Positions 43,294 to 64,000 are shown, counted from the stretch's first letter. The stretch: DNA of 64,000 bases from an uncultured Chloroflexia bacterium (GCA_963823925.1 CAWGNI010000010.1:279424-343423), one strand, 5' to 3'. Notes: generated from the letters alone by a model not told the origin. Program-made: numbers and translations.

Positions 43294-43365
43294 GGTTTCC
43301 GGGCGCCGTAAGATGACACCGGGACGCCGCCGGTTGCCGGTGTGCCTCCAGCCGAGGAGATCGCG

Positions 43366-44913: not shown

Positions 44914-44920
44914 GCACGCG

Positions 44921-51080: not shown

Positions 51081-51112
51081 CGCCCTAGGTCACCCGATAC
51101 GGAGTCACGCCG

Positions 51113-51148
51113 GCACGGGGACCGTGGCACTCGCCACCGTCCCCGTGC
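51113..51148. terminator. Long intergenic hairpin between the SBP and permease genes (mRNA-stabilising or attenuating)
   Basis: GCACGGGGAC (51113-51122) pairs with GTCCCCGTGC (51139-51148), with an inner GTGGC/GCCAC stem. Confidence 0.65.
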
Positions 51149-51154
51149 GGGGCC

Positions 51155-52858
51155 TCAAGAGACCTTCGAAGCCGTATTGAAGAACGCCTGGCCCAGACCA
51201 CTGGAGTAGAACCCGGTGAACTGGTTCGAGGAACCACTGAGGAAGTTGTAGAAGTACGGCACACCGATCGGCACCTCGTCGTTGAGGATGGTTTCGATCT
51301 TGCCGCAGGCGGCCTTCTGGGCATCGACGCCGACCGACGTCTGGAATTCCTTGAAGGCGGCGTCGTATGCCGCCGATGAGTACTGGGACGAGTTCCAGAC
51401 GCCCTTCGTCGACAACGCCGAGTTCAGGTAGACGTCCGGTGTCGCCCGATGTCCATAGTCGACGATGCCGAGCTCGGCAGCGCCGGAACACGGTGGGTCG
51501 GCCGGCTCGGGCGGGCACCACTGTGCACCGTAGAACGTGTCGAGGCTCTCGACGGCGACCGTCAGGTTGATCCCGGCCGGCTCCGCCTGGCTCTTGAGGA
51601 GCGTCGCGAGGTCAGGGATCTCCAGGATCTGGCCGCAGTGCAACGTCGCCGACAGCCCCGTCGCGTTGGCGTCTGCCAGGAGTTGCTTTGCCTGATCGAT
51701 GTTCTGCGCCCGCTGGGGCACGGACGAATCGAAGTACGGGTAGACCGGAGCGATGACATGGTCATTGCCCAGATCCGCCTTGCCCTGGAACAGCTGCTGG
51801 ATGAGGGCCGGCCGGTCGAACGTGAGGGCCAGCGCCTGGCGGACCCGCTTGTCAACGAACTGTCCCGTGTCCGTGCGCATCCAGATCTGGCGATGGAGGG
51901 CCGCCTGAAGGGCGACGCTCGTGAAGTTCGGGTCGTCCAGCAGGGACTTTCCGGACAGGACATCGAACTGGATGATGGCGTCCACCTGGCCGCCCTGATA
52001 GGCGGTGACCATCGGCCCGGTGGCGTCGAAATAGATCCACTCGACCGTGTCGAGCGGTGTCTTGGCACCCCACCAGGCATCGTTCCGGGCGAACGTGGCG
52101 CCGCTGGCCTGGTTGTAGTTGACGAGCTTCCAGGCGCCGGTGCCGTTCGGGCTCCCGTCGAGGGTCGTGCCGGTCGTGTAGGCCGCCGGTGTGATGAGCG
52201 TCTGCGCATTGAAGACCGAAACGAGGTACGGGAAGTTGCCGTTCGGGTTCGCCAGGTTGAAGGTGACCGTGTTCGCGTCGGTCGCCACCGCGCCACCGCT
52301 CTCGAGCACGCCCTTCAGGCCGGAGTTGCCGGACTCGACCAGGCGCTCCATCGTGGCCACGACATCGGCCGAGGTGAAGTCCGTGCCGTCCTGCCACTTG
52401 ACGCCCTGGCGGAGATCGAAGACCCACACGCTGCCGGTGTCGTTCGGCGTCCACTTGGTGGCCAGGCCCGGAGCGAGCAGGACCAGGGGCTGACTCGGGT
52501 CCGAAGTGCACAGGAACTCGAACGACATCGCCGTGGTGCCGTATGAGCCGAGGTCCTGCATCAGGATCGGATCCAGGGGGCCCGACGGCCGCTGCGCCGC
52601 GACCCGGATCGTGCCGCCGGCGACGGGCGGAGCCGCGCTGGCGCCGGCACTGGCCCCGGTCGTCGGCGCCGCTCCGGTCGCGCTCGAGCTGCCGCAGGCG
52701 GCGATGACCGCGCTGATCGAGGCCATCGACAGGCCGACGATCGCGCCACGTTGCATGAATTCGCGGCGGCTCAATCGGCCGCGGGCGAACGACTCGACGA
52801 CGTCCAGCTGCAGCGGGGTGGTGTCCTGACGAACCTTGTCAAGCTTGGAATAGTCCAT
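51155..52858 (-). CDS. Family 5 ABC substrate-binding lipoprotein with twin-arginine signal
   Basis: LSRREFMQR Tat motif, lipobox IAAC, PGLATKW, FDLRQGVKWQDG, NGTGAWKL and RVRQALAL. Confidence 0.92.
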   Translation of the reverse strand: MDYSKLDKVRQDTTPLQLDVVESFARGRLSRREFMQRGAIVGLSMASISAVIAACGSSSATGAAPTTGASAGASAAPPVAGGTIRVAAQRPSGPLDPILMQDLGSYGTTAMSFEFLCTSDPSQPLVLLAPGLATKWTPNDTGSVWVFDLRQGVKWQDGTDFTSADVVATMERLVESGNSGLKGVLESGGAVATDANTVTFNLANPNGNFPYLVSVFNAQTLITPAAYTTGTTLDGSPNGTGAWKLVNYNQASGATFARNDAWWGAKTPLDTVEWIYFDATGPMVTAYQGGQVDAIIQFDVLSGKSLLDDPNFTSVALQAALHRQIWMRTDTGQFVDKRVRQALALTFDRPALIQQLFQGKADLGNDHVIAPVYPYFDSSVPQRAQNIDQAKQLLADANATGLSATLHCGQILEIPDLATLLKSQAEPAGINLTVAVESLDTFYGAQWCPPEPADPPCSGAAELGIVDYGHRATPDVYLNSALSTKGVWNSSQYSSAAYDAAFKEFQTSVGVDAQKAACGKIETILNDEVPIGVPYFYNFLSGSSNQFTGFYSSGLGQAFFNTASKVS

Positions 52859-53035
52859 GGGTCTGGAACCTCCGGGGCGACAAGTGGGCGGCGGGACTCA
52901 CGACCATGATCGACCGCGAGCGACAACGCGATACCGGCTCTGTGTCTCCCCAGCCGGTCCGTGAGTGTGTCGGAACCGTACCGGCCGACCTCTCGACTGT
53001 CAACGCTCGGTGACCCCAGGCGCGATACTTCGCGG

Positions 53036-54145
53036 ATGCGAATCACGGCCATCCGGATCGACCGGGCCACCCTGCCGCTGTCGCCGCCGTTCCCGGCGGC
53101 ATGGGATCCGATCCCTCGTGAGTCCTTCGCGGCCACGATCGTCCGAGTCGAGACCGATGCGGGGATCGTCGGGATCGGGTCGGGCGACACGATGGATGGC
53201 TTCGGGGCGTTCAGCCACCTGTTCCTCGGCGAGGACCCGTTGGCCATCGCCCGTCATGTCCGGGTGCTCGAGACGATCGACTTCCATGGCAGTCGCTACT
53301 GGCCGCTCGAGGTCGCCCTGTGGGACATCATCGGGCAGGTCGCCGGGTTGCCGGTGGCGACCTTGTTCGGCGGCACGCTCGACGGGATCCCGGCCTACGC
53401 ATCGTGCGGGATGTTGCTCCCGGCGGCGGCCCGCGCCGAAGCAGCGCTGCGCTTCCGGGAGGAAGGCTTCCGAGCCCTCAAGATCCGGGTCGACCCGGAA
53501 CATCTCGAGGATGGTCTCGCGGCGGTCACCGCGACGCGGGCGGCAGTCGGCGACTCGATGGCGATCATGGTCGATCTCAACCAGGGCTGGCGGATGGCCG
53601 GTGACGTGCGCCGCTCGCTGGACCCCGTCGCGGCGCGCGAGGTCGCGGCCCGGCTCGCCGACGATGGCGTGCTCTGGGTGGAGGAACCGCTGGCGGGGAC
53701 CGACCTGCGTGGCCTGGCTGCCCTGCGCGCATCGGGTCCCGGCATCCGGGTGGCGGGCGGCGAGATGACCCGGACGTTCACCGAGCTCCTGGCTGCCCTC
53801 GACGCCGACGCGTTCGACGTCCACCAGCCCGACGTCGTCCTGGCCGCCGGGATGTCGCGCGGCCGGACCATCGCCGAGCTTGCCATGGCGCGCAACCGCT
53901 GGTACTCACCGCACACCTGGACGAACGGGATCGGGCTGCTGGCCAACCTGCACGTCGCTGCCGGCGTCGGTGGTGGCCCGTTCATCGAGTACCCGTACGA
54001 CCCGCCCGGCTGGACCGCGGAGCGACGCGACTTCATGCTCGCCGAACCGATCCGCCCGGGCCCCGATGGGATCCTGCGCGTCCCGACCGCGCCAGGGCTC
54101 GGGATCGTCCTCGACGAGGCGGCGATCACCAGGTATGCGGGATGA
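53036..54145 (+). CDS. Mandelate racemase/muconate-lactonising (enolase superfamily) enzyme
   Basis: VRVETDAGIVGIG, EVALWDIIG, ALKIRV, MVDLNQG (D), WVEEP (E), AGGE (E), HQPD and YSPHTW. Confidence 0.92.
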   Translation: MRITAIRIDRATLPLSPPFPAAWDPIPRESFAATIVRVETDAGIVGIGSGDTMDGFGAFSHLFLGEDPLAIARHVRVLETIDFHGSRYWPLEVALWDIIGQVAGLPVATLFGGTLDGIPAYASCGMLLPAAARAEAALRFREEGFRALKIRVDPEHLEDGLAAVTATRAAVGDSMAIMVDLNQGWRMAGDVRRSLDPVAAREVAARLADDGVLWVEEPLAGTDLRGLAALRASGPGIRVAGGEMTRTFTELLAALDADAFDVHQPDVVLAAGMSRGRTIAELAMARNRWYSPHTWTNGIGLLANLHVAAGVGGGPFIEYPYDPPGWTAERRDFMLAEPIRPGPDGILRVPTAPGLGIVLDEAAITRYAG

Positions 54146-55656
54146 CCTCGGCACCGACGAACCCGACCGTGGACGACTGGATCGCCCGGGCGGCCGAGGT
54201 GGCGCCGCGGACCGAGCTGTTCATCGATGGGCGGTTCGTCCCGGCCGCGTCGGGCCGGACGTTCGACGACGTCGCCGGGCGGGACGGGCAACGGATCGCC
54301 ACGGTGGCCGAGGCGTCGGTCGAGGACGTCGACCTGGCCGTTCAGGCGGCCCGGCGTTCGTTCGACGACCGGCGATGGAGTGACCAGCCGCCCGCGGCGC
54401 GAAAGCGGGTCCTCCTGCGCCTGGCGGAACTCGTTCGCGAACACACGGACGAGCTCGCGCTGCTCGAGTCCCTCGACGTCGGCAAACCCATCCGCGACAC
54501 CCTGGCCGTGGACGTCCCGGGTGCCGCCACGACCTTCCAGTGGTACGCAGAGACGATCGACAAGACCTACGGCGAGGTCGGACCGACCGGTCCCGATGCG
54601 CTCTCGCTGGTGACCCGCGAGCCGATCGGTGTGGTCGCCGCGATCGTGCCCTGGAACTACCCGCTGATCATCACCGCCTGGAAGCTCGGGGCGGCGCTCG
54701 CGACGGGCAACTCGGTGGTGCTCAAACCCGCCAGCCAATCGCCGCTGACCGCGCTCCGTCTGGCGGAGCTCGCCGCCGCCGCCGGCCTGCCCGACGGCGT
54801 GCTCAACGTCGTCGCCGGTCCTGGGGCGGTCGTCGGCGACGCCCTGGCTCGACATCCAGGGGTCGACAAGATCGCGTTCACCGGGTCGACGACGGTCGGC
54901 AAGTCGCTCCTTCGGGCAGTCGGCGAGTCCGACGTCAAGGCCATCTCGCTGGAACTCGGCGGCAAGAGTCCGCAGGTGGTCCTCGCCGACGTCGGCGACC
55001 TCGACACGGCGGCTTCGGCGATCGGCTGGGGGATCTTCTACAACAGCGGCCAGACCTGCAACGCCGGCTCCCGGCTGGTCGTCCACCGCTCGGTGCGCCA
55101 GGAACTCGTCGACCGGATCGCGGCCCTCGGTCGGACGCTGGCGCCCGGGGACCCGCTCGATCCCCGGACCCGGCTCGGCTCGATCGTGGACGGCCGCCAG
55201 CTCGAGAAGATCCTCGGATACGTGGCCATCGGCCGGACGGAGGGAGCCGCGGTCCTTGCCGGCGGCGAGCGCGTGCGAGAGGAAAGCGGCGGCTACTTCG
55301 TCGGTCCGACCATCCTCGACGGCGTCAGCAATTCGATGCGGGTGGCCCGCGAGGAGATCTTCGGACCCGTCCTGACCGTGACCGAGTTCGAGGACGAGGA
55401 CGAAGCGATCGCGATCGCCAACGACACGCCGTACGGTCTCGCCGCCGGCGTCTGGACCCGCGACGTCAACCGTGCCCATCGCCTGTCGCGTCGGATCCGG
55501 GCCGGGGTCGTGTGGGTCAACACCTTCGACACTGCCGACATCACCGTCCCGTTCGGTGGCTTCAAGCAATCGGGCTTCGGGCGCGACAAGGGACTCCACG
55601 CCCTCGAGGGGTACAGCCAGCTCAAGACGACCTGGTTCGACCTGTCCGGAGGCTGA
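54142..55656 (+). CDS. Aldehyde dehydrogenase (PuuC-like)
   Basis: IVPWNYP, LKPASQS, FTGSTTVG, LELGGKSP, YNSGQTCNAGSR, EEIFGPV and GGFKQSG. Confidence 0.93.
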   Translation: MTSAPTNPTVDDWIARAAEVAPRTELFIDGRFVPAASGRTFDDVAGRDGQRIATVAEASVEDVDLAVQAARRSFDDRRWSDQPPAARKRVLLRLAELVREHTDELALLESLDVGKPIRDTLAVDVPGAATTFQWYAETIDKTYGEVGPTGPDALSLVTREPIGVVAAIVPWNYPLIITAWKLGAALATGNSVVLKPASQSPLTALRLAELAAAAGLPDGVLNVVAGPGAVVGDALARHPGVDKIAFTGSTTVGKSLLRAVGESDVKAISLELGGKSPQVVLADVGDLDTAASAIGWGIFYNSGQTCNAGSRLVVHRSVRQELVDRIAALGRTLAPGDPLDPRTRLGSIVDGRQLEKILGYVAIGRTEGAAVLAGGERVREESGGYFVGPTILDGVSNSMRVAREEIFGPVLTVTEFEDEDEAIAIANDTPYGLAAGVWTRDVNRAHRLSRRIRAGVVWVNTFDTADITVPFGGFKQSGFGRDKGLHALEGYSQLKTTWFDLSGG

Positions 55657-55757
55657 GCCGGCGGCTCCGAGCCGCGGCCCCCGGTTTGCCGTTAGCATGC
55701 TAGGCGTCGTCGACGCCCCGGATCGGGCCGTCGAGGCAACGTCGGACAGGAGTGCCT

Positions 55758-57323
55758 GTGACGGACATGGACACGGACGCGGGCCAGGGTCTTCGACGTC
55801 GCCGTTCAGGTGGACGCGAGGGTCACGCTCGGAGCGCCCTGCCCCAGCAGCGACCGTGGGCCCAGCCACGGATGCGCTATCCCCCGACCGAGCTGATCTC
55901 GGCCGATGAACTCGAGTCGATCCACCTTGGCTCGCTGCGGGTGCTGTCCGAGATCGGGATGGACTTCCTCGACCCAGAGGCCCGCGAGATCCTGCGCGGC
56001 GCCGGTGCCACCGTCGAATCGGACTCCCAGCGCGTCCGGTTCCCGCCCGCGATGGTCGACGAGATCATCAGGACCGCGCCGTCGACGTTCACGCTGCATG
56101 CCCGCAATCCGGCCCATGACGTTCGCCTCGGCGGCGACTGGATCGCGTTCGGGACCGTCGGCAGTCCGCCGAACGTGGCCGACCTGGACCGGGGACGTCG
56201 GATCGGCAACCGGGCGGACTACCAGAACCTGCTGCGGCTCTCCCAGATGCTCAACGCCGTCCACTTCATGGCGGGATACCCGGTCGAGCCGGTCGACCTG
56301 CACCACAGCGTCCGGCACCTCCATGCGACCTACGACGCCCTGACCCTGATGGACAAGGTGGTCCACGCCTACAGCCTCGGCCGCCAGCGCAATATCGACT
56401 GTCTCGAGATGGTCCGGATCGCCCGCGGCATCGACATGGACACGATCGACCGCGAGCCATCCGTGATGACCGTCGTCAACTCGAGTTCGCCGCTGCGCCT
56501 GGACACTCCGATGCTCCAGGGGATGATCGAGTTCGCGTCCCACAACCAGGTGGTCTGCATCACGCCGTTCACGCTCGCCGGCGCGATGGCCCCGGTGACC
56601 CTGGCCGGCGCACTCGCCGAGCAGAACGCCGAAGCCCTGGCCGGGATCGTCATGACCCAGGCCGTCCGACCCGGCGCGCCGGTGATCTACGGCGGCTTCA
56701 CGTCGAATGTCGACATGCAATCGGGCGCGCCAGCGTTCGGGACGCCGGAGTACATGCGGACGGCGATGATCGGCGGCCAGCTCGCCCGTCGGTACGGTGT
56801 CCCGTACCGCTCCTCGAACGTGTGTGCCGCGAATGCGCTCGATGCCCAGGCGGCGTACGAATCGGTCTTCTCCCTGTGGGGCGCGATCATGGGCGGGGTC
56901 AACCTGCTGATGCACGGCGCCGGCTGGATGGAAGGCGGACTCCACGCCAGCTACGAGAAGATGATCCTGGACGCGGAACTCCTCGAGATGGTCGAGGCCT
57001 TCCTCGAGCCGGTGATCGTCGACGCTGACACCCTCGGCTTCTCGGCGATGGAGGAGGTCGGCCCGGGGGGCCACTTCTTCGGGGCCGCGCACACCCAGGA
57101 GCGGTATCGGACGGCCTTCCACAAGCCGATGCTGAGCGACTGGCGGAACTACGAGACGTGGCAGGAGGCCGGCTCGCCCGAGCTGCCGTCCAAGGCCAAT
57201 CGGATCTGGAAGGAGCTGCTCGCGGCGTACGAACCGCCACCGATCGATCCGGCCGTCGCCGAGGAACTCGAGGCGTTCGTAGCTCGACGTGTCGCCGAGG
57301 GCGGCGTCCCGACGGACTACTGA
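55758..57323 (+). CDS. MttB-superfamily methyltransferase, pyrrolysine-free, copy 2
   Basis: LISADELESIH, RVRFP, PVEPVDL, NSSSPLRLD, TPFTLAGAMAPVT, SGAPAFGTPE, DAQAAYES and HGAGWMEGGL; no in-frame TAG. AGGAG SD before GTG 55758. Confidence 0.92.
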   Translation: MTDMDTDAGQGLRRRRSGGREGHARSALPQQRPWAQPRMRYPPTELISADELESIHLGSLRVLSEIGMDFLDPEAREILRGAGATVESDSQRVRFPPAMVDEIIRTAPSTFTLHARNPAHDVRLGGDWIAFGTVGSPPNVADLDRGRRIGNRADYQNLLRLSQMLNAVHFMAGYPVEPVDLHHSVRHLHATYDALTLMDKVVHAYSLGRQRNIDCLEMVRIARGIDMDTIDREPSVMTVVNSSSPLRLDTPMLQGMIEFASHNQVVCITPFTLAGAMAPVTLAGALAEQNAEALAGIVMTQAVRPGAPVIYGGFTSNVDMQSGAPAFGTPEYMRTAMIGGQLARRYGVPYRSSNVCAANALDAQAAYESVFSLWGAIMGGVNLLMHGAGWMEGGLHASYEKMILDAELLEMVEAFLEPVIVDADTLGFSAMEEVGPGGHFFGAAHTQERYRTAFHKPMLSDWRNYETWQEAGSPELPSKANRIWKELLAAYEPPPIDPAVAEELEAFVARRVAEGGVPTDY

Positions 57324-57362: not shown

Positions 57363-59816
57363 ATGAAGTCATCCGCCCAGGTCGTCGTCATCGGTGGTGG
57401 CGTCGTCGGTGCGAGCGTCCTGTATCACCTGACCAAGGCGGGCTGGACCGACGTCGTCCTGCTCGAGCGTCGTGAACTGACGGCCGGGTCGACCTGGCAT
57501 GCCGCCGGCGGGATGCACACGCTCAACGGCGATCCCAACGTGGCCAAGCTTCAGCAATACACGATCAAGTTGTACGAGGAGATCGAGCGGGTCTCCGGGC
57601 AGGATTGCTCGATCCACCTGCCCGGCGGGCTGATGCTCGCGGACACGGAGGTCCGGATGGACTTCCTGCGGATGGCCGTGGCGCGCGGCCGATATCTGGG
57701 CATGGAACTGGAGCTGATCAGCGCCAGGGAGGCGCAGGATCTCTTCCCGCTGATGGACGCCCAGTATTTCGTCGGCGCGCTGTGGGACCCGATCGAAGGA
57801 CATCTGGACCCGACCGGGGTGACGCGGGCCTATGTCAAGTGCGCCCAGTTGGCCGGCGCGGAGGTCTACCAGCAGACCCCGGTCGTCGGCTTGACCCAGC
57901 GCGCCGACGACACGTGGGACGTCCGGGTGGAGAGCGGCGACGTGATCCACGCGGAGCATGTCGTCAACGCCGGGGGCCTGTGGGCTCGCGAAGTCGGTCG
58001 GATGGTCGGTCTGGAACTGCCGATCCTGGCGATGGAGCACATGTACCTGCTCACCGACGACATGCCGGAGGTCAAGGCGTTCAATGCGAGCACCGGCAAG
58101 GAGGTGCCCGGCGTCCTCGACTTCGGCGGCGAGGTCTACCTCCGTCAAGAGGGCCAGGGGATGCTCCTCGGCACCTACGAGCAGGCGTCGGTCCCGTGGT
58201 CGCCGAAGGCGACGCCGTGGGACTTCGGCTCGCAGCTGCTGAAGCCCGACATCGACCGGATCACCCCGGAGCTCCAGGTCGCCTTCCAGCACTACCCGGC
58301 GATGGGTACGATCGGCATCCGTCGGGTCGTCAACGGACCGTTCACCTTCTCGCCGGACGGGAACCCGGTCGTCGGCCCGATCCCCGGCCTGCCTGGCTTC
58401 TGGGTCGCCTGCGGGGTGATGGCCGGCCTGTCCCAGGGTGGTGGGGTCGGGCTCGCCCTGGCCGCCTGGATGACCGCCGGCCGGGACAGCGACTCGGGTA
58501 TGGACGTGTGGGCGATGGATGTCGCTCGCTACGGCGACTACGCGACGATGGGCTACACGAACGCCAAGGTCCAGGAGAACTACCGTCGGCGCTTCCAGAT
58601 CACCTTCCCGAACGAAGAGCTGCCGGCCGGCAGGCCGCTCCACACGACCCCGATCTACGACCGATTGAGCGCTGCCAACGCCGTCTGGGGTGCGTCGTAT
58701 GGCCTCGAGCACGCCCTGTGGTTCCAGGACGCGGGCCTGCCGCCGGTGGAGGACGTCACGTTCCGGCGCTCGAACGCCTGGGACCCCGTCGCCGCGGAAG
58801 TCAAGGCCGTGCGCGAACGGGTCGGTCTCACGGAGATCTCCAACTTCGCCAAGTACCGAGTCCGTGGTCCGGCCGCAGAGGCATGGCTGTCGTCGCTCCT
58901 GACCAATCGGATGCCCAGGGTCGGCCGGATCGCGCTGACGGCGATGCTCAACGATCAGGGCCGGATCGTCGGGGAATTCACGGTGGCGCGGGCCGCTGCC
59001 GATGACTTCTTCCTGTTCGGGTCACAGGCCGCCGAGACGCATCACGGCCGCTGGTTCCGAAGTCACCTTCCGACCGACGGGTCGGTCACCTTCGAGGTCC
59101 TCGGGCTCGGCCTGGTCGGGCTGTCGGTGGCCGGACCGAAGGCTCGCGAGGTGCTCCAGGCGGTCACCGACGAGGACGTGTCCGGCGAGGCACTCCGGTT
59201 CCTCGACTTCCGCGAGCTGGATCTCGGGATGATCCCCGCGCGCGTCGGTCGGCTGTCGTACAGCGGCGACCTTGGCTACGAGTTGTGGGTGGCGCCCGAG
59301 TACCAGCGGGCCCTGTACGACCGGCTGATGACGGCGGGCGCCGCCCACGGCATCCGTCTGTTCGGGTTCCGGGCGCTGATGTCGCTCCGGCTCGAGAAGA
59401 GCTTCGGCACCTGGTTCCGTGAGTACCGGCCGATCTACACGATCCCTGAAGCCGGGATCGGCCACTACGTGAAGCTCGACCACGACTTCATCGGGCGCGA
59501 GGCCTACGAAACCCAGCTGGCCGCTGGACCGACACGCCGCCTGGTGATGCTCGTCGTCGAGCCCGACCCCGACGATCCGGCGGACGTCATCGGCGACGAG
59601 CCGATCTGGCACCGCGACCAGGTCGTCGGCTGGGTGACGTCGGGCGGCTACGGCCACTCCGCCGGGGTATCGCTGGCGCTTGGCTACGTTCCCACGGAAC
59701 TCGCCTCGCTCGAAGGCGATGGCGAGTTCGAGATCGAGATCATCGGCCGGCGGCGCCCCGCCCGCATCCAGCCACGACCCGTGGTCGATCCCGAGGGTCT
59801 GCGGATGCGCCAGTGA
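57363..59816 (+). CDS. Dimethylglycine-dehydrogenase-like FAD oxidoreductase with GcvT folate domain
   Basis: VVIGGGVVG, LTAGSTWHAAG (covalent-FAD His motif), NGPFTFSPDG, GLSQGGGVG and GcvT domains (LNDQGRI, SLRLEKSF, GDEPIW). Confidence 0.92.
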   Translation: MKSSAQVVVIGGGVVGASVLYHLTKAGWTDVVLLERRELTAGSTWHAAGGMHTLNGDPNVAKLQQYTIKLYEEIERVSGQDCSIHLPGGLMLADTEVRMDFLRMAVARGRYLGMELELISAREAQDLFPLMDAQYFVGALWDPIEGHLDPTGVTRAYVKCAQLAGAEVYQQTPVVGLTQRADDTWDVRVESGDVIHAEHVVNAGGLWAREVGRMVGLELPILAMEHMYLLTDDMPEVKAFNASTGKEVPGVLDFGGEVYLRQEGQGMLLGTYEQASVPWSPKATPWDFGSQLLKPDIDRITPELQVAFQHYPAMGTIGIRRVVNGPFTFSPDGNPVVGPIPGLPGFWVACGVMAGLSQGGGVGLALAAWMTAGRDSDSGMDVWAMDVARYGDYATMGYTNAKVQENYRRRFQITFPNEELPAGRPLHTTPIYDRLSAANAVWGASYGLEHALWFQDAGLPPVEDVTFRRSNAWDPVAAEVKAVRERVGLTEISNFAKYRVRGPAAEAWLSSLLTNRMPRVGRIALTAMLNDQGRIVGEFTVARAAADDFFLFGSQAAETHHGRWFRSHLPTDGSVTFEVLGLGLVGLSVAGPKAREVLQAVTDEDVSGEALRFLDFRELDLGMIPARVGRLSYSGDLGYELWVAPEYQRALYDRLMTAGAAHGIRLFGFRALMSLRLEKSFGTWFREYRPIYTIPEAGIGHYVKLDHDFIGREAYETQLAAGPTRRLVMLVVEPDPDDPADVIGDEPIWHRDQVVGWVTSGGYGHSAGVSLALGYVPTELASLEGDGEFEIEIIGRRRPARIQPRPVVDPEGLRMRQ

Positions 59817-62056
59817 CAGAGGTTCCCGGCGGGGACGACCGGATCGTCGTCGACGGGCGTCCGATCGCGTTCGAATCTGGGGATCCGGTCGCCATCGCCG
59901 TGCTGCGATCCGGCGATCACCCGGCCCGCGGCGGGACGCTATGCCTGGCCGGCGACTGTGGCAACTGCCTGGCGGAGGTCGATGGGATCACCTACGTCCG
60001 GACCTGCCAGGTCCAGGCCCGGCCGGGGCTCGTCGTCCGGCGCCATCCGGCGGCGGCGATGCCGGCGCTCCCCACGCTCACCGCGGCGGACGTCACCGCG
60101 AGCCCGGTCGTCCGCGCCATCGGCGTCGAGCGGGAGACCGTCGATGTCGCGGTGATCGGGGCGGGACGCGCCGGGAACGAGGCTGCCGCCCAGGCGGCGG
60201 CCGACGGTCGCCGGGTGCGGCTACTCGACGCGGGCCAGGGCGAAGAGGTCATGGGCGTCTATCCGGGCCCGATGGTCGTCGCCCGGACGCCCGGCGGCAT
60301 GCTCCACCTCGAGGCCCACGAGGTCGTCGTCGCGACCGGATCGGCGGAGATCCAACCGGTCTGTCCCGGTGATCACCTGGCGGGCCTCCTGACGGCGCGT
60401 GCGGCCGAGGCCGCCCATCGGGCGGGGGTCGACCTCGGTGTGGCGGTCGCGATCGGCACGCCGCCCGACGGCGTCCCGTGCACGGTCCTTGCCGGCCGGA
60501 TCGTCAGGTTCGAGCCAGGGTCGGACGATCCCGGCCGGGTCGGGAGCGTCGTGACGATCGACGACGCGGGCACGGAGCGTGCCGCTACCTGCGATACCGT
60601 CATCCTCGGCCTGGGTCGTGCCTCACGGGACGTCCTGGCGAGGATGGCCGACACGCGATCCGTCTCCGTCATCGGATCCGCTGCCGTCGATCACCCGCTC
60701 CCACCGCCGCCCGTCGACGGCGTCGTGTGCCGATGCATGGGCACGACCGTCGACGACCTCGACGGAGCCTGGCAGCACGGCTTCACGGAGCTCGAGCTGC
60801 TCAAGCGATCAAGCCGGGCCGGCCTCGGACCGTGCCAGGGTGGTGCCTGCCTGCCGCACGTTCGGTCCTGGATCGCCGCCAGGACGGGTGTCGTGCCCGA
60901 GCCATTCACGGCTCGACCGGCAGCCCGCCAGATCACCCTCGGCGAGGCGTCCGCCGATGCGTCGGTCGATGCCTTCCGGCGGACGCCGCTCCATGCCGAG
61001 CACCTGGCGCTCGGTGCGCGGATGGACCGGTTCGGGAACTGGTGGCGCCCGTGGCACTACGGGGACGTGGCCGCCGAGTACTGGGCGGTCCGCGAGGGTG
61101 TCTCGCTCGGCGACGTCAGCACGCTGGGCAAGCTGGTCGTGTCCGGGCCGGACGTCGTCGAACTGCTCGAGCGCCTCTATCCCTGTCACGTGGCCGACAT
61201 CAAGCCCGGTCGATCCCGCTATGCCCTGCTGCTCAACGAACGTGGACACGTGATGGATGACGGGATGATCGTGCGCGAATCCGAGGACCGCTTCGTCCTG
61301 TCATTCACGTCGGGCGGCGCGGCGAACGCCGAGATGTGGGTCCGCGACTGGATCGATACCTGGGGTCTCCGGGTCCACGTCCTCGATCGGACGATGTCGT
61401 TGGCGGCGATCAACGTCACCGGACCGCGCGCGCGCGGCCTGCTGATCCGGGCCGGCCTGGCCGATCCGCCTCGCTTCCTCGGCCACGTCCACGCCGACGT
61501 CGCCGGTGTCCCGTGTCACGTCATGCGCCTGTCGTTCACCGGCGAGGCCGCCTTCGAGCTCCACCATCCGGTCGACCGATCGGTCGAGCTCTGGCGGGCG
61601 CTCATGCGTCTTGGATCGGACCTCGGGATCCGTCCCCACGGGCTGCAGGCCCTGTTCGGTCTGCGACTCGAGAAGGGCCACGTCATCGTCGGGATGGATA
61701 CCGAACTCGACACGACGCCGCGCCGGCTGGGGATGGACTGGGCCGTCCGGATGGAGAAGCCCCGGTTCATCGGTCGCTCCGCGCTCGAACGGACCTCGAA
61801 GCTTCCCGACGAGCGGCGCTGGATGGGGTTCACCATGGATGGCGCTGCCCCCATCGAAGGCGCCCCGATCCGGGCCGACGGCGAGATCATCGGCAACGTG
61901 ACCGGCAGCTGGACCTCGCCGCTGCTCGGACGAGCGCTCGTCCTCGGATGGCAGCGTCGAACGCCGTACCGCGATCGGGTCGAGATCGACGGCCGCGAGG
62001 CGACCGTCAGCCCGACCCCGTTCTACGATCCGGAGGGCCACCGTGCGCGCGCTTGA
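59813..62056 (+). CDS. Sarcosine-oxidase-alpha-like protein (2Fe-2S, short Rossmann, BFD-like, GcvT domains), 747 aa
   Basis: CLAGDCGNC...VRTC, VAVIGAGRAG, VCRC...KRSSRAGLGPCQGGAC, RRTPLHAEH, DVSTLGK, MDDG and LRLEKGH. Confidence 0.85.
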   Translation: MTEVPGGDDRIVVDGRPIAFESGDPVAIAVLRSGDHPARGGTLCLAGDCGNCLAEVDGITYVRTCQVQARPGLVVRRHPAAAMPALPTLTAADVTASPVVRAIGVERETVDVAVIGAGRAGNEAAAQAAADGRRVRLLDAGQGEEVMGVYPGPMVVARTPGGMLHLEAHEVVVATGSAEIQPVCPGDHLAGLLTARAAEAAHRAGVDLGVAVAIGTPPDGVPCTVLAGRIVRFEPGSDDPGRVGSVVTIDDAGTERAATCDTVILGLGRASRDVLARMADTRSVSVIGSAAVDHPLPPPPVDGVVCRCMGTTVDDLDGAWQHGFTELELLKRSSRAGLGPCQGGACLPHVRSWIAARTGVVPEPFTARPAARQITLGEASADASVDAFRRTPLHAEHLALGARMDRFGNWWRPWHYGDVAAEYWAVREGVSLGDVSTLGKLVVSGPDVVELLERLYPCHVADIKPGRSRYALLLNERGHVMDDGMIVRESEDRFVLSFTSGGAANAEMWVRDWIDTWGLRVHVLDRTMSLAAINVTGPRARGLLIRAGLADPPRFLGHVHADVAGVPCHVMRLSFTGEAAFELHHPVDRSVELWRALMRLGSDLGIRPHGLQALFGLRLEKGHVIVGMDTELDTTPRRLGMDWAVRMEKPRFIGRSALERTSKLPDERRWMGFTMDGAAPIEGAPIRADGEIIGNVTGSWTSPLLGRALVLGWQRRTPYRDRVEIDGREATVSPTPFYDPEGHRARA

Positions 62057-62426
62057 ACGGCTCGTCGGTCTCCGCGTCGTGGCGGATCCCGCGGCCATCG
62101 ACGCGGCCCGCTGGCGTGGTGACGAGGTCACCGTCCTGCGGTTCGCCCCGGACGATGCGTTCGCCCTGGGGGCGTCGGGCGTCGAGGTCGACGATCCACT
62201 GGCCATCGTCGAGCACGAGGTCGGGTTCGCAGGCGCCCGGCTCTCCTCGACGGAGTTCGCCGAGATCATGGCCCACGTCGAGTGGCCGCTCCCCGCGGGC
62301 CGTCCGGCACTCGCGCAGGGCGCGATCGCCGGGGTCCCGGCGAAACTCTGGCTGGCGAACGACGGCGAGGCGATGCTCCTGGCGAACCTGGCCTACGCCG
62401 AGGAACTCGAGGGGCGGCTGCGATGA
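62043..62426 (+). CDS. Short sarcosine-oxidase-gamma-like protein
   Basis: LRFAPDDAF and AQGAIAGVPAKLW...LL...YAEEL resemble SoxG; overlaps both neighbours. Confidence 0.55.
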   Translation: MRALERLVGLRVVADPAAIDAARWRGDEVTVLRFAPDDAFALGASGVEVDDPLAIVEHEVGFAGARLSSTEFAEIMAHVEWPLPAGRPALAQGAIAGVPAKLWLANDGEAMLLANLAYAEELEGRLR

Positions 62427-63631
62427 GCGCGTTCGTCGACGACCTGCCGGCGATCCGCTGGCACGAGCCGCGGTCGAGCTATGACGTGGTCATCGTCGGC
62501 GGCGGCGGTCATGGCCTGGCGACCGCCTATTACCTCGCCACGCGCCACGGGATCACGAACGTCGCGGTCGTCGAAGCGGACTACATCGCCTCCGGCAACA
62601 CGGGCCGGAACACGACCATCATCCGGGCGAACTACGGGATCCCGGAGGCGGTCCGCTTCTACCAGCACTCGCTCGAGATGTATCAGACACTCGAGGATGA
62701 GGTCGGCGCCGCGATCCTCCACCAGACCAAGGGCATCTTCTGGGTCGCCCATACCGAGACGACCATGCGCACGGAGCGGGCGCGCTGCCTCGTCAACACG
62801 GCCTGTGGCGCGAAGACATCGATGGTCAGTCCGATCGAACTCAAGGAGCTGATCCCGGAGATCGACCTGACCGGCGGTGGTCGGTATCCGGTCCTCGGTG
62901 CGTCGCATCATGTCGAGGGCGCGACCGCGCGGCACGACCGGGTCGCCTGGGCCTACGCTGCCGGGGCATCGCAGCGGGGGGTGCATGTCATCCAGCATCG
63001 ACCGGTCACCGGGCTCATCCACGACGGCGACCGGATCGTCGGGGTCGACACCGAGGCTGGTCCGATCGCGGCCGGCCTGGTCCTGTCCGCCGTGGGTGGC
63101 CGGGTCACCCGAATGGCCGCCCATGCCGGGGTCCGTCTGCCGGTCCGGACCCATCCCCTCCACGCCTTCGTGACGAACGACTACGCCCAGGGGTTCGGAT
63201 CGATCCTCGCCAGCACGGAGCTGGCCTGCTATGTCTCGCAGACGGAGCGCGGCCAGATGCTCATCGGGGCCGAGTTCGACTCGCAGCCGTCGTATTCGCG
63301 CCAGTCGTCGTTCGCCGCACTGCGCAGCTATTCGTACAAGATCACCCGGCTCCTGCCATTCCTGCGGGACATGCGCATCCTGCGCTCGTGGGCGGGCAGT
63401 TGCGACATCTCAGCGGACTTCTCGCCGATCATGGGTGCGACCGGTGTCGATGGGTTCCTGATCACGACCGGATGGGGGACCTGGGGGTTCAAGGCGATCC
63501 CGGCCGGTGGGGAAGGGATGGCCGGCCTCATCGCCACGGGCCGGCCGCCGGACCTCATCGCCCCGTTCAGTCTCGACCGCTTCCGACGCGACCACGTGCT
63601 CGCCGACCAGGGCTCGGCGGGGACCCGCTGA
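62423..63631 (+). CDS. soxB: Sarcosine oxidase beta subunit family
   Basis: YDVVIVGGGGHGLATAYYLA, GNTGRNTTIIRANY, TARHDRVAWAYA (FMN-linked His) and GWGTWGFKAIP. Confidence 0.9.
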   Translation: MSAFVDDLPAIRWHEPRSSYDVVIVGGGGHGLATAYYLATRHGITNVAVVEADYIASGNTGRNTTIIRANYGIPEAVRFYQHSLEMYQTLEDEVGAAILHQTKGIFWVAHTETTMRTERARCLVNTACGAKTSMVSPIELKELIPEIDLTGGGRYPVLGASHHVEGATARHDRVAWAYAAGASQRGVHVIQHRPVTGLIHDGDRIVGVDTEAGPIAAGLVLSAVGGRVTRMAAHAGVRLPVRTHPLHAFVTNDYAQGFGSILASTELACYVSQTERGQMLIGAEFDSQPSYSRQSSFAALRSYSYKITRLLPFLRDMRILRSWAGSCDISADFSPIMGATGVDGFLITTGWGTWGFKAIPAGGEGMAGLIATGRPPDLIAPFSLDRFRRDHVLADQGSAGTR

Positions 63632-63876
63632 TGCTCTGGCTCCCCTGTCCGCACTGCGGCCGTCGGCCGATCGACGAGTTCACCTTCGGTGGCGAGCGCC
63701 GAGCCGTGCCGGACTGGATCACGGATCCCGACGAGCGGGACTTCGATGAGGTCTGGAACTTCGAGAACCCGGACACCGAGACCACCGAGCGCTGGTTCCA
63801 CGCCTTCGGTTGCCGGCGCTGGCTGACCGTCCGGCGCGATACCACGAGCGACACCGTCCTGGAGGTCACGACGTGA
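63631..63876 (+). CDS. soxD: Sarcosine oxidase delta subunit
   Basis: CPHCGRRPIDEF and WFHAFGCRRW (Cys3His zinc site), RDT. Confidence 0.92.
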   Translation: MLWLPCPHCGRRPIDEFTFGGERRAVPDWITDPDERDFDEVWNFENPDTETTERWFHAFGCRRWLTVRRDTTSDTVLEVTT

Positions 63877-64000
63877 CCGGTCTGGCCGACCGGCGGTTCG
63901 AGATGGTCCTGCGCAACCGCGTGCTGTTCGGGGTCGGTGCCGTCACCCGGTTGCCCGAGGTGATCATCGCGGCCGGTGGCTCGCGCGTCTTTCTCGTCAC
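63873..64000 (+). CDS. 5' part of a probable iron-containing alcohol dehydrogenase (partial)
   Basis: The GTG overlaps the soxD stop. RVLFGVGAVTRLPEVI...GSRVFLVT is the typical Fe-ADH N-terminus. Confidence 0.7.
   Translation, partial: MTGLADRRFEMVLRNRVLFGVGAVTRLPEVIIAAGGSRVFLV

What the first reader, a model, noticed from the sequence alone, without database searches (positions are those of the whole stretch)
59813..63876. Sarcosine-oxidase-like complex in permuted order with a short, Fe-S-bearing alpha subunit
Seen: the order is alpha-gamma-beta-delta, all overlapping, whereas the established order is soxBDAG. Alpha is 747 aa (canonical about 960-1000) with a full ferredoxin motif (C-x4-C-x2-C...C, about 59942-60006), a BFD-like motif (CRC...PCQGGAC, about 60728-60850) and a Rossmann region cut short after the first beta-alpha-beta. 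Gamma is only 127 aa. Beta keeps the FMN-linking His and delta keeps its Zn site. Established: classical SoxA has no Fe-S cluster, whereas HcnAB, opine and proline dehydrogenase subunits do. Inference: a hybrid dehydrogenase-type N-demethylase that passes electrons through Fe-S centres rather than directly to O2.
Basis: partly seen in the sequence, partly recalled or inferred. Interest (0 to 1): 0.65.

Follow-up and report, generated by a model that had tools for sequence, protein, structure and literature searches.

The report
Iron-sulfur sarcosine-oxidase-like demethylase operon
Four overlapping genes in an uncultured Limnocylindria (Chloroflexota) genome encode a sarcosine-oxidase-like enzyme whose large subunit is unusually short and keeps two iron-sulfur binding sites that the studied enzymes lack. 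It probably removes the last methyl group in betaine breakdown without making hydrogen peroxide, and it belongs to a large family that I found only as database annotations.

Summary
Genes alpha (59813-62056, 747 aa), gamma (62043-62426, 127 aa), beta (62423-63631, 402 aa) and delta (63631-63876, 81 aa) overlap in that order.

- **Alpha.** It carries Cx4Cx2Cx12C and CxCx32Cx4C. All eight Cys are invariant in 117 homologues and absent from solved SoxA structures.
- **Not a deletion artefact.** The short alpha stands in this order in 80 species-level genomes, almost all labelled Limnocylindria or Chloroflexota. It differs from longer relatives by several small deletions.
- **Other subunits.** The 127-aa protein folds like SoxG. 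The beta FMN-linking His, the delta Zn ligands and the alpha folate-site Asp are conserved.
- **Wider family.** The short form is a derived branch of a larger clade of 850-900 aa Fe-S-bearing alphas. I found these only as annotations ('(2Fe-2S)-binding protein', 'sarcosine oxidase subunit alpha'). All score below NCBI's curated SoxA/SoxB cut-offs.
- **Context.** The conserved operon is (enolase-superfamily gene)-ALDH-MttB-DMGDH-like-alpha-gamma-beta-delta-Fe-ADH. This suggests stepwise choline/betaine demethylation with this complex acting last, on sarcosine.

Electron exit through Fe-S rather than O2 rests on analogy with characterised relatives and is untested. I found no biochemical study. 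Verdict: a real, uncharacterised variant of a known enzyme kind, of moderate interest.

The parts
52961..54145 (+). Enolase-superfamily (MR_MLE) gene. It is the probable first gene of the operon and overlaps the ALDH gene by ATGA.
   Evidence: Pfam MR_MLE_C at 4e-49. All NCBIfam hits are far below their cut-offs. It lies upstream of the cluster in 20 of 80 related loci.
54142..55656 (+). NAD(P)-dependent aldehyde dehydrogenase (PuuC / betaine-aldehyde dehydrogenase-like).
   Evidence: Pfam Aldedh at 9.5e-172. NCBIfam PuuC scores 607 bits and BADH 516 bits, both below their cut-offs.
55752..57323 (+). MttB-superfamily methyltransferase. It is a candidate quaternary-amine (glycine betaine type) : corrinoid methyltransferase.
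   Evidence: Pfam MTTB at 4e-201. It lies immediately upstream of the DMGDH-like gene in most of the 80 related loci. PMC12478193 gives the role of MtgB homologues in aerobes.
57363..59816 (+). Fused DAO-FAO_M-GcvT flavoprotein (dimethylglycine dehydrogenase/oxidase-like, 817 aa).
   Evidence: Pfam DAO, FAO_M, GCV_T and GCV_T_C. Its stop overlaps the alpha start codon (GTGA).
59813..62056 (+). Alpha subunit, 747 aa. Its parts are a ferredoxin-like domain, a compact dinucleotide-fold domain, a Cys-cluster (BFD-like/A3) domain and a GcvT folate domain.
   Evidence: Pfam and NCBIfam hits. PDB sequence hits 1VRQ_A and 2GAG_A. Foldseek gives 1VRQ_A at 4e-48 and 1Y56_A at 1e-14. More than 1000 homologues of 739-768 aa were found.
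59942..60007 (+). Plant-ferredoxin-type [2Fe-2S] motif C44-x4-C49-x2-C52-x12-C65.
   Evidence: Invariant in 117/117 homologues and in alignment A1, which includes an 868-aa relative. It matches the gamma-subunit motif of the dye-linked dehydrogenases. It is absent at the aligned positions of 1VRQ_A and 2GAG_A and in three canonical proteobacterial SoxA sequences.
60158..60229 (+). Dinucleotide-binding beta-alpha-beta: G116-x-G118-x-x-G121 ... D139.
   Evidence: Pfam Pyr_redox_2 covers residues 111-148 only. G116 and G121 are invariant; G118 and D139 are at least 90% conserved. It aligns with the Rossmann motif of 1VRQ_A (residues 127-158).
60728..60850 (+). BFD-like / Cys-cluster motif C306-x-C308-x32-C341-x4-C346.
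   Evidence: Pfam Fer2_BFD at 4.5e-7, with a weaker SO_alpha_A3 hit. Invariant. It aligns with residues 413-468 of the L-proline dehydrogenase alpha chain 1Y56_A. The CxC...Cx4C type is described in PMC4575208.
60989..62029 (+). GcvT folate-binding domain plus C-terminal barrel. Asp483 (61259-61261) sits at the position of DMGO Asp552.
   Evidence: Pfam GCV_T at 1.5e-67 and GCV_T_C at 8e-9. The alignment to 1PJ5_A places D483 opposite D552. D482, D483 and G484 are invariant.
62043..62426 (+). Gamma subunit, 127 aa: a compact SoxG-like protein.
   Evidence: No Pfam or NCBIfam hit. The AF2 model has pLDDT 95.6. The best PDB fold matches are the TSOX gamma chains 2GAG_C and 1VRQ_C (E about 5e-4, TM 0.63-0.69). 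A profile search against PDB finds 2GAG_C only at E 0.14, with a shared 'LAPDE/D' segment. It lies between alpha and beta wherever the contig reaches, in all but one locus (one tblastn miss).
62423..63631 (+). Beta subunit, 402 aa: the DAO-family catalytic flavoprotein. It has an N-terminal GxGxxG, His171 (62933-62935) at the covalent-FMN position, and R321-x-W323.
   Evidence: Pfam DAO at 1.3e-55. 1VRQ_B at 6e-94 and 1Y56_B at 9e-40. H171 and R321 are invariant in 64 relatives.
63631..63876 (+). Delta subunit, 81 aa, with Cys6, Cys9, His57 and Cys61 (Zn-site positions).
   Evidence: Pfam SoxD at 9e-20. Alignment to 2GAG_D and 1VRQ_D. The four ligands are invariant in 61 relatives.
63873..64000 (+). 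Start of an iron-containing alcohol dehydrogenase gene. It runs beyond the window to the equivalent of position 65054, and its start codon overlaps the delta stop (GTGA).
   Evidence: ORF at L002 4297-5478. The best NCBIfam hit is GbsB-type choline dehydrogenase at 252 bits, below the 550-bit cut-off. It lies downstream of delta in 51 of 80 related loci.

Best explanation
The four genes encode one alpha-beta-gamma-delta complex. It is a compact member of an uncharacterised, Fe-S-bearing sister clade of heterotetrameric sarcosine oxidase.

**Proposed mechanism.**
1. Beta oxidises an N-methyl secondary amine at its FAD. The substrate is most likely sarcosine, the last intermediate of choline/glycine-betaine demethylation.
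2. The iminium product is passed to the GcvT domain of alpha and converted with tetrahydrofolate to glycine plus 5,10-methylene-THF.
3. Electrons go from FAD to the FMN held at the alpha/beta interface (covalently, through beta His171).
4. From there they pass through the BFD-like [2Fe-2S] and the N-terminal ferredoxin-like [2Fe-2S] of alpha to an external acceptor. That acceptor could be the respiratory chain, ETF, cytochrome or ferredoxin; it is unidentified. In classical TSOX the electrons instead reduce O2 to H2O2 at the FMN.

**Shown here.** The subunit set, the fold of gamma, conservation of every cofactor-ligand position, the folate-site Asp, the conserved operon and its phylogenetic spread.

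**Inferred.** Actual Fe-S occupancy, the electron path, the dehydrogenase rather than oxidase behaviour, and sarcosine as the substrate.
For: **Fe-S motifs.**
- Both Cys motifs are invariant in 117 homologues, while the other Cys vary.
- They remain invariant when an 868-aa relative at 46% identity is added.
- They are the two motif types assigned to [2Fe-2S] binding in opine, D-hydroxyproline and L-proline dehydrogenases. Of these, the opine enzyme contains FAD, FMN and [2Fe-2S] and uses dyes or cytochrome c but not O2 (PMC4575208).
- Canonical SoxA lacks the Cys.

**A separate clade.** Fe-S-bearing alphas form a 100%-supported clade separate from three canonical SoxA sequences. They fail the TIGR01372 and TIGR01373 cut-offs that a canonical control passes.

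**Other cofactor positions.** The beta His, the RxW motif, the delta Zn ligands and the alpha folate Asp are all conserved. Gamma has a SoxG fold.

**Conserved operon.** MttB > DMGDH-like > alpha > gamma > beta > delta > Fe-ADH is the usual arrangement in 80 species-level genomes. That gives three successive demethylation enzymes for three methyl groups. The flanking ALDH and GbsB-like ADH fit choline to betaine.

**Genome content.**
- The genome has no second Sox-type complex.
- Circumstantially, catalase is found in 1 of 41 genomes of the class and KatG in 5 of 41. The window's own genome has neither.
Against: - No biochemical data exist for any member that I could find.
- Four-Cys sites can bind Zn or a single Fe instead of a cluster.
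- The spacer of the second motif is 32 residues, against the 15-20 quoted for the dye-linked dehydrogenases.
- No electron-acceptor gene lies in the operon.
- The covalent-FMN His of the O2-reactive TSOX is retained, so oxidase activity is not excluded.
- The AF2 model of alpha is only moderate (pLDDT 68.6; below 50 in residues 37-51, the loop carrying C44 and C49). No multimer model could be made, so cluster-to-FMN distances are unknown.
- The substrate assignment rests on gene context alone. The ALDH and ADH score below the curated cut-offs, and the enolase-superfamily gene hints at other betaines.
- Catalase absence is weak evidence: the MAG is 84% complete and other peroxidases were not surveyed.
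Confidence: 0.55

Rival explanations
1. It is a functionally ordinary O2-dependent sarcosine oxidase. The Cys sites would be structural (Zn or mononuclear Fe) or retained clusters that play no part in turnover, and H2O2 would be made at the FMN as in TSOX.
For: - The beta subunit is clearly closer to TSOX beta than to L-proline dehydrogenase beta (E 6e-94 against 9e-40).
- The covalent-FMN His is invariant.
- The delta Zn site and the SoxG-like gamma are kept.
- No acceptor gene lies in the operon.
Against: - Eight Cys in two canonical cluster motifs stay strictly invariant over a wide clade, while the other Cys drift.
- The characterised enzyme with both motifs that I could read about, opine dehydrogenase, does not use O2. 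Canonical oxidases have lost exactly these Cys.
- Carriers of the operon mostly lack catalase and KatG.
Confidence: 0.2
2. The mechanism is the same, but the substrate is not sarcosine. It would be another N-methyl amino acid released from a different betaine, for example N-methylproline, N-methylalanine or N-methylglutamate.
For: - An enolase-superfamily gene, a kind known to include betaine epimerases (my own knowledge), heads the operon in some genomes.
- The genome holds six MttB paralogs, so it probably uses several quaternary amines.
- The transporter next door is of the SBP_bac_5 peptide/opine type, not a classical betaine transporter.
- All four subunits score below the curated Sox cut-offs.
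Against: - Three consecutive demethylation-type enzymes fit a trimethylated substrate such as glycine betaine.
- The best NCBIfam hit of the ADH is GbsB choline dehydrogenase, and the ALDH scores well on betaine-aldehyde dehydrogenase models.
- The enolase-superfamily gene is present in only a minority of the loci.
Confidence: 0.2
3. The short alpha is an assembly or binning artefact (an internal deletion) or a decaying pseudogene.
For: The genome is an 84%-complete MAG. In one relative (G009) the alpha gene is split by an in-frame TGA.
Against: - The same 739-768 aa length occurs in more than 1000 database proteins and in 80 independent species-level genomes.
- The shortening is spread over several separate deletions.
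- The reading frame is intact, and the compact domain folds confidently.
Confidence: 0.01

Closest known systems
Heterotetrameric sarcosine oxidase (TSOX, SoxBDAG) of Corynebacterium sp. U-96/P-1 and Stenotrophomonas maltophilia (PDB 1VRQ, 2GAG)
   Same: - Four subunits: alpha, beta, gamma and delta.
- Beta is the nearest solved homologue (E 6e-94) and carries the His at the covalent-FMN position.
- Delta has the Cys3His Zn site.
- Gamma has the SoxG fold.
- Alpha has the ferredoxin-like N-terminal domain, a dinucleotide fold, an A3/Cys-cluster-type domain and a GcvT folate domain. The whole-chain Foldseek match is 4e-48.
   Different: - Alpha is about 220 aa shorter and keeps eight Cys in two [2Fe-2S] motifs that TSOX alpha lacks.
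- Gamma is 127 aa, against about 200.
- The gene order is A-G-B-D instead of B-D-A-G.
- Alpha, beta and delta score below the curated TIGR01372/01373/01374 cut-offs, and gamma has no SoxG sequence hit.
- The acceptor is probably not O2 (inferred).
Heteromeric dye-linked amine dehydrogenases: opine dehydrogenase OdhABC, D-hydroxyproline dehydrogenase, HCN synthase HcnABC, archaeal L-proline dehydrogenase PDH1 (PDB 1Y56)
   Same: - The two [2Fe-2S] motif types (Cx4Cx2Cx11-12C and CxC...Cx4C).
- A DAO-family catalytic subunit with the RxW FMN motif.
- FMN placed between the subunits.
- As in L-proline dehydrogenase alpha, the ferredoxin-like module is fused to the N-terminus of alpha.
- 1Y56_A is matched by fold (1e-14) and 1Y56_B by sequence (9e-40).
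   Different: - Those enzymes have no folate (GcvT) domain and no SoxD or SoxG partners. Their alpha has a full Pyr_redox_2-type domain.
- The second motif here has a 32-residue spacer.
- Beta here is much nearer to SoxB.
850-900 aa '(2Fe-2S)-binding protein / sarcosine oxidase subunit alpha' proteins of Chloroflexota, Gemmatimonadota and other metagenomic bacteria (uncharacterised)
   Same: - Both Cys motifs are present in 105 of the 120 best hits. The other 15 are shorter at the N-terminus.
- They have the same partner genes, with gamma directly after alpha.
- They form the same clade in the tree.
   Different: - They are about 105 aa longer between the two motifs and have about 20 extra N-terminal residues.
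- Delta may lie before alpha.
- The short form is confined almost entirely to Limnocylindria-labelled genomes.
Dimethylglycine oxidase/dehydrogenase (DMGO 1PJ5; DMGDH 4PAB, 5L46)
   Same: A DAO-type amine oxidation coupled to a GcvT folate domain with the conserved Asp. A gene of this type lies immediately upstream.
   Different: Those are single-chain fusions with one flavin and no FMN, Fe-S or Zn subunits.

Membership tests
Heterotetrameric sarcosine oxidase (TSOX, SoxA/B/D/G) | Four co-encoded subunits alpha, beta, gamma and delta | tested here: met
   Four overlapping genes. The domains and folds of all four were identified.
Heterotetrameric sarcosine oxidase (TSOX, SoxA/B/D/G) | Alpha reaches the curated score of TIGR01372 (soxA) | tested here: not met
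   281 bits against a cut-off of 1164, matching only model positions 524-995. A canonical Thalassospira control scores 1551 bits.
Heterotetrameric sarcosine oxidase (TSOX, SoxA/B/D/G) | Beta reaches the curated score of TIGR01373 (soxB) | tested here: not met
   398 bits against a cut-off of 529. The control scores 722 bits.
Heterotetrameric sarcosine oxidase (TSOX, SoxA/B/D/G) | Delta belongs to the SoxD family and has the Cys3His Zn site | tested here: met
   Pfam SoxD scores 71 bits against a cut-off of 27. TIGR01374 scores 61 against 116.5, which is not met. C6, C9, H57 and C61 are aligned and invariant.
Heterotetrameric sarcosine oxidase (TSOX, SoxA/B/D/G) | Gamma belongs to the SoxG family | tested here: inconclusive
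   There is no PF04268 hit, and a profile search against PDB gives E 0.14. However, the best fold matches are the TSOX gamma chains, at E about 5e-4.
Heterotetrameric sarcosine oxidase (TSOX, SoxA/B/D/G) | Beta His that links FMN covalently (His173 in the P-1 / S. maltophilia numbering, from my own knowledge) | tested here: met
   H171 aligns with the first His of KHDH in 1VRQ_B and is invariant in 64 relatives. The covalent bond itself cannot be tested here.
Heterotetrameric sarcosine oxidase (TSOX, SoxA/B/D/G) | Alpha C-terminal GcvT folate domain with the catalytic Asp | tested here: met
   GCV_T at 1.5e-67. D483 lies opposite DMGO D552 and is invariant.
Heterotetrameric sarcosine oxidase (TSOX, SoxA/B/D/G) | No Fe-S centre: a Cys-less ferredoxin-like domain and A3 domain in alpha | tested here: not met
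   Both four-Cys motifs are present and invariant. They are absent in 1VRQ_A, 2GAG_A and three canonical SoxA sequences.
Heterotetrameric sarcosine oxidase (TSOX, SoxA/B/D/G) | Gene order soxB-D-A-G | tested here: not met
   The order here is A-G-B-D, as it is in every related locus of the 80 that extends far enough, apart from one gamma miss. The canonical order is seen in the annotated Acinetobacter and Thalassospira plasmids.
Heterotetrameric sarcosine oxidase (TSOX, SoxA/B/D/G) | O2 is the electron acceptor and H2O2 the product | not testable with these tools
   This needs an enzyme assay.
Dye-linked heteromeric amine dehydrogenases (HcnABC / OdhABC / D-HypDH / L-ProDH) | Cys-x4-Cys-x2-Cys-x11-12-Cys [2Fe-2S] motif (gamma subunit or the N-terminus of alpha) | tested here: met
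   C44-x4-C49-x2-C52-x12-C65. The motif definition comes from PMC4575208.
Dye-linked heteromeric amine dehydrogenases (HcnABC / OdhABC / D-HypDH / L-ProDH) | Cys-x-Cys-x15-20-Cys-x4-Cys motif in alpha | tested here: inconclusive
   The CxC...Cx4C pattern is present, but the spacer is 32 residues. It aligns with the Cys-cluster region of 1Y56_A.
Dye-linked heteromeric amine dehydrogenases (HcnABC / OdhABC / D-HypDH / L-ProDH) | Arg-x-Trp FMN motif in the catalytic beta subunit | tested here: met
   R321-S-W323. R321 is invariant. The motif comes from PMC4575208.
Dye-linked heteromeric amine dehydrogenases (HcnABC / OdhABC / D-HypDH / L-ProDH) | No folate-binding domain and no SoxD or SoxG partners | tested here: not met
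   The GcvT domain, SoxD and a SoxG-fold subunit are all present.
Dye-linked heteromeric amine dehydrogenases (HcnABC / OdhABC / D-HypDH / L-ProDH) | Uses dyes or cytochrome c but not O2 | not testable with these tools
   This needs an enzyme assay.

The most novel reading that the evidence does not exclude
The Fe-S-bearing SoxA-like clade is the respiratory-chain-linked 'sarcosine dehydrogenase' form of TSOX.

- The clade has about 1000 short-form proteins, plus a larger set of 850-900 aa forms. Labelled examples come from at least Chloroflexota and Gemmatimonadota.
- It would retain the electron wire FAD > FMN > [2Fe-2S] > [2Fe-2S].
- Classical oxidases would keep only Cys-less relics of that wire: the ferredoxin-like domain, the A3 domain and the unexplained NAD+ site.
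- The 747-aa Limnocylindria alpha would define the minimal working version.

If so, betaine and choline demethylation in these abundant soil and freshwater bacteria yields no H2O2.
Probability: 0.4. Interest if true: 0.55.

Novelty: new variant of a known kind. Interest (0 to 1): 0.42.

Why it matters
- **Enzyme mechanism.** Heterotetrameric sarcosine oxidase is a textbook diflavin enzyme. Its alpha subunit carries unexplained parts: a bound NAD+ with no known role, a ferredoxin-like domain without a cluster, and a Cys-less A3 domain. A sister clade in which those parts still hold their Fe-S ligands offers a direct way to test what they were for. It also offers a way to see how an oxidase arose from a dehydrogenase.
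- **Ecology.** Whether the last step of choline/betaine demethylation makes H2O2 or feeds the respiratory chain matters for organisms that mostly lack catalase. It also matters for H2O2 budgets linked to betaine turnover; sarcosine oxidases are proposed as the bacterial H2O2 source in PMC13381886.
- **Practical use.** A compact, O2-insensitive sarcosine dehydrogenase could serve in mediator-based sarcosine or creatinine sensors.
- **Annotation.** These proteins are currently labelled inconsistently as GcvT, '(2Fe-2S)-binding protein' or sarcosine oxidase alpha.

Tried and rejected
- **Assembly deletion or pseudogene.** Rejected.
- **Gamma as an unrelated small ORF.** Sequence searches failed: no Pfam or NCBIfam hit, and a profile search against PDB gave E 0.14. 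Structure prediction plus Foldseek then identified the SoxG fold.
- **Representative-library search with the alpha N-terminus.** It returned mostly fragments of one compact cluster. It added little beyond showing that the short form is a narrow clade.
- **Literature.** Five searches found no biochemical study of an Fe-S-bearing SoxA-like complex. The review by Lahham et al. 2021 is not held. I could not confirm the His173 numbering from a held paper, so it rests on my own knowledge.
- **Cluster look-up for organism names of the long clade.** It gave no names. Its phylum range therefore rests on only two labelled examples, Chloroflexota and Gemmatimonadota.
- **Structure limits.** Cluster-to-FMN distances could not be measured.
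- **A canonical soxBDAG elsewhere in the genome.** None was found.
- **Acceptor genes in the operon.** None was found. ETF genes exist elsewhere, next to a DMGDH paralog.

Full report
**Anatomy**

The stretch 59813-63876 holds four overlapping genes on the + strand:

| Gene | Coordinates | Length | Start |
|---|---|---|---|
| alpha | 59813-62056 | 747 aa | GTG |
| gamma | 62043-62426 | 127 aa | GTG |
| beta | 62423-63631 | 402 aa | ATG |
| delta | 63631-63876 | 81 aa | ATG |

- The junctions are a 14-nt overlap, ATGA and TGATG.
- The alpha start overlaps the stop of the upstream gene (GTGA). The delta stop overlaps the start of the next gene (GTGA).
- The four genes are therefore the core of a longer, translationally coupled operon.
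- In full, the operon is: an enolase-superfamily gene (52961-54145), an aldehyde dehydrogenase (54142-55656), an MttB-family methyltransferase (55752-57323), a fused DAO-GcvT flavoprotein of the dimethylglycine dehydrogenase type (57363-59816), then alpha, gamma, beta and delta, and an iron-type alcohol dehydrogenase that runs past the window's end.
- The window lies on a 398-kb contig of a 2.9-Mb, 84%-complete metagenome-assembled genome.

**Alpha**

- Pfam finds Fer2_4 (residues 11-78), only the first beta-alpha-beta of Pyr_redox_2 (111-148), Fer2_BFD (304-354, with a weaker SO_alpha_A3 hit), GCV_T (393-644) and GCV_T_C (668-739).
- The curated soxA model TIGR01372 matches only positions 524-995. 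It scores 281 bits against a cut-off of 1164.
- In an alignment of 117 full-length homologues, all eight motif Cys are 100% conserved. The other five Cys are conserved at 51-95%.
- The eight remain invariant when a relative of 868 aa at 46% identity is added.
- In the solved TSOX alpha chains 1VRQ_A and 2GAG_A, the aligned N-terminal segment has no Cys.
- Three canonical proteobacterial SoxA proteins taken from annotated plasmids have neither motif.
- PMC4575208 lists these two motif types as the [2Fe-2S] ligands of the gamma and alpha subunits of the opine / D-hydroxyproline / L-proline dehydrogenase group. It reports that the opine enzyme holds FAD, FMN and [2Fe-2S] and reduces dyes, ferricyanide and cytochrome c, but not O2 or NAD(P)+. 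The only mismatch is the longer spacer of the second motif here (32 residues against 15-20).
- The folate site looks intact. D483 aligns with Asp552 of dimethylglycine oxidase, and D482-D483-G484 are invariant.
- The dinucleotide motif G116-x-G-x-x-G121 ... D139 is conserved.

**Why alpha is short**

- The AF2 model is of moderate quality overall (pLDDT 68.6). It is mostly confident for the region 105-290.
- Its best PDB matches are TSOX alpha over the whole chain (4e-48), GcvT proteins, and the alpha chain of P. horikoshii L-proline dehydrogenase (1Y56_A, 1e-14).
- Compared with the 868-aa relative, the shortening is spread over several separate deletions. They lie in the ferredoxin-like domain, in the linker after it, after the second strand of the Rossmann fold, in the second half of the nucleotide domain, and before the Cys-cluster domain.
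- The distance between the two motifs is about 260 aa in 120 short proteins and about 365 aa in 105 long ones.
- This is evolutionary compaction, not an assembly fault. It is also more than 'cut after the first beta-alpha-beta'.

**The small and catalytic subunits**

- *Gamma.* The 127-aa protein has no Pfam or NCBIfam hit. A profile of 12 orthologues finds TSOX gamma in the PDB only at E 0.14, although with a shared 'LAPDE/D' segment. Its AF2 model is very confident (pLDDT 95.6). The two best structural matches in the PDB are the TSOX gamma chains 2GAG_C and 1VRQ_C (E about 5e-4, TM 0.63-0.69), followed by GcvT-fold proteins. It is a compact SoxG.
- *Beta.* It matches TSOX beta at 6e-94 and L-proline dehydrogenase beta at 9e-40. 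His171 aligns with the first His of the KHDH segment. By my own knowledge this is the FMN-linking His173 of the P-1 / S. maltophilia numbering. The Arg-x-Trp FMN motif is present. Both are invariant in 64 relatives, including the three long-form loci.
- *Delta.* It is a SoxD-family protein. Cys6, Cys9, His57 and Cys61 align with the conserved positions of 2GAG_D and are invariant in 61 relatives.

**Distribution**

- The alpha N-terminal half has more than 1000 database relatives of 739-768 aa at 61-81% identity. They are named GcvT, '(2Fe-2S)-binding protein' or 'sarcosine oxidase alpha subunit', and the labelled ones are Chloroflexota or Limnocylindrales MAGs.
- Among 301 genomes sampled across the phylum, the short form occurs in 10, all in the window's own class.
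Nearly all are labelled Candidatus Limnocylindria/Limnocylindrales or Chloroflexota, and all are uncultured.
- In those 80 loci the order alpha > gamma > beta > delta holds wherever the contig extends, with one gamma miss. The modal arrangement is MttB > DMGDH-like > alpha > gamma > beta > delta > Fe-ADH.
- A second, larger set of 850-900 aa proteins carries both motifs in 105 of the 120 best hits. They are annotated 'sarcosine oxidase subunit alpha' or '(2Fe-2S)-binding protein'.
- Three examples of the long form were examined. A Chloroflexota genome has the order alpha-gamma-beta-delta. A Gemmatimonadota MAG has delta-alpha-gamma-beta. A third contig has alpha-gamma-beta.
- In a maximum-likelihood tree the short proteins are one clade (100). 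They lie inside a 100%-supported Fe-S-bearing group that is separate from the three canonical SoxA sequences used as outgroup.
- Long-form alphas score 522-554 bits on TIGR01372, and a long-form beta scores 442 on TIGR01373. All are below the cut-offs, whereas a canonical control scores 1551 and 722.
- The 'permutation' is a swap of the two conserved pairs A-G and B-D relative to the canonical B-D-A-G order seen in annotated plasmids. By itself it carries little meaning.

**Function**

- The conserved neighbourhood gives three successive demethylation-type enzymes.
  - An MttB-family methyltransferase. MtgB homologues demethylate glycine betaine in aerobic marine bacteria through a corrinoid protein (PMC12478193).
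  - A dimethylglycine dehydrogenase-like fusion.
  - The Sox-like complex.
- The cluster is flanked by an ALDH that scores well on betaine-aldehyde dehydrogenase models, and by an Fe-ADH whose best hit is GbsB choline dehydrogenase. Both score below the curated cut-offs.
- The simplest reading is choline > betaine aldehyde > glycine betaine > dimethylglycine > sarcosine > glycine, with this complex doing the last step and delivering the methyl carbon to tetrahydrofolate.
- The genome has six MttB paralogs and no second Sox-type complex. It has a B12-binding protein near another MttB gene, and ETF genes next to a DMGDH paralog.
- Sarcosine is therefore likely but not proven. The enolase-superfamily gene and the peptide/opine-type ABC transporter leave room for other betaines.

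**Oxidase or dehydrogenase**

- No tool here can decide this.
- The argument for a dehydrogenase is comparative. Opine dehydrogenase, the characterised relative with both cluster motifs for which I could read acceptor data, does not use O2. The oxidases have lost exactly those Cys. The ligands have been held invariant across a deep clade.
- A circumstantial point is that catalase occurs in 1 of 41 genomes of the class and KatG in 5 of 41. The window's genome and most sampled carriers of the operon have neither.
- Against it: the covalent-FMN His of the O2-reactive enzyme is kept, no acceptor gene lies in the operon, and four-Cys sites can hold other metals.
- I put the full model at about 0.55. 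That model is two [2Fe-2S] clusters carrying electrons from FMN to an external acceptor, with sarcosine as substrate.

**Novelty**

- I found no biochemical or structural study of any Fe-S-bearing SoxA-like complex in five full-text searches. The family is visible in databases only through generic or inconsistent names.
- An earlier first-stage note of this scan records the same architecture in another genome. It repeats the same reading and is not independent evidence.
- The finding is a real, conserved and uncharacterised variant of a known enzyme kind. The short alpha is a lineage-specific compact form of it. It is worth an expression-and-EPR experiment, but it is not a new category of system.

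Noticed in passing
window 41300-46399: A second MttB paralog (43342-44913) is flanked by two OYE/FMN plus Rossmann flavoproteins (41300-42949 and 44759-46399). Both match only about the first 457 positions of the 645-position Fe-S flavoenzyme models (TIGR03997, BaiCD type). Their C-terminal part is either missing or in another frame.
   Followed up: no
genome contigs C10, C4, C2, C7 (outside or partly inside the window): The 2.9-Mb genome has six MttB-family paralogs. A B12-binding-domain protein at C10:267507-267848 lies about 4 kb from the paralog at C10:271950-273368. The organism looks specialised for quaternary amines.
   Followed up: partly
genome C7:102121-105876: A DMGDH-like paralog is followed directly by electron-transfer flavoprotein genes. 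This suggests ETF-linked demethylation elsewhere in the genome.
   Followed up: no
genome C5:269132-269869: A GcvT-like reading frame contains two in-frame TGA codons. It could be a pseudogene, a frameshift or recoding; I did not examine it.
   Followed up: no
L026 / G009:C1:631731-632808: In one related genome the short alpha gene is split and carries an in-frame TGA. It is possibly a decaying copy or a sequencing error.
   Followed up: no
class-wide (41 genomes): Catalase (PF00199) is present in 1 of 41 genomes of the class, and KatG-type peroxidase (PF00141) in 5 of 41. The window's genome has neither, though it is only 84% complete.
   Followed up: partly
window 46886-52858 (- strand): Divergent from the operon lies an SBP_bac_5 (peptide/opine-type) ABC transporter. 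It has two permeases and a fused double ATPase of 814 aa. It is not a classical betaine transporter.
   Followed up: no
L074, L078, L111, L115, L116, L121: A few of the 80 related loci sit in MAGs labelled Verrucomicrobiia, Patescibacteria, Acidimicrobiia or Actinomycetota, at 64-72% identity to the window's alpha. These could reflect mis-binning, mislabelling or horizontal transfer.
   Followed up: no
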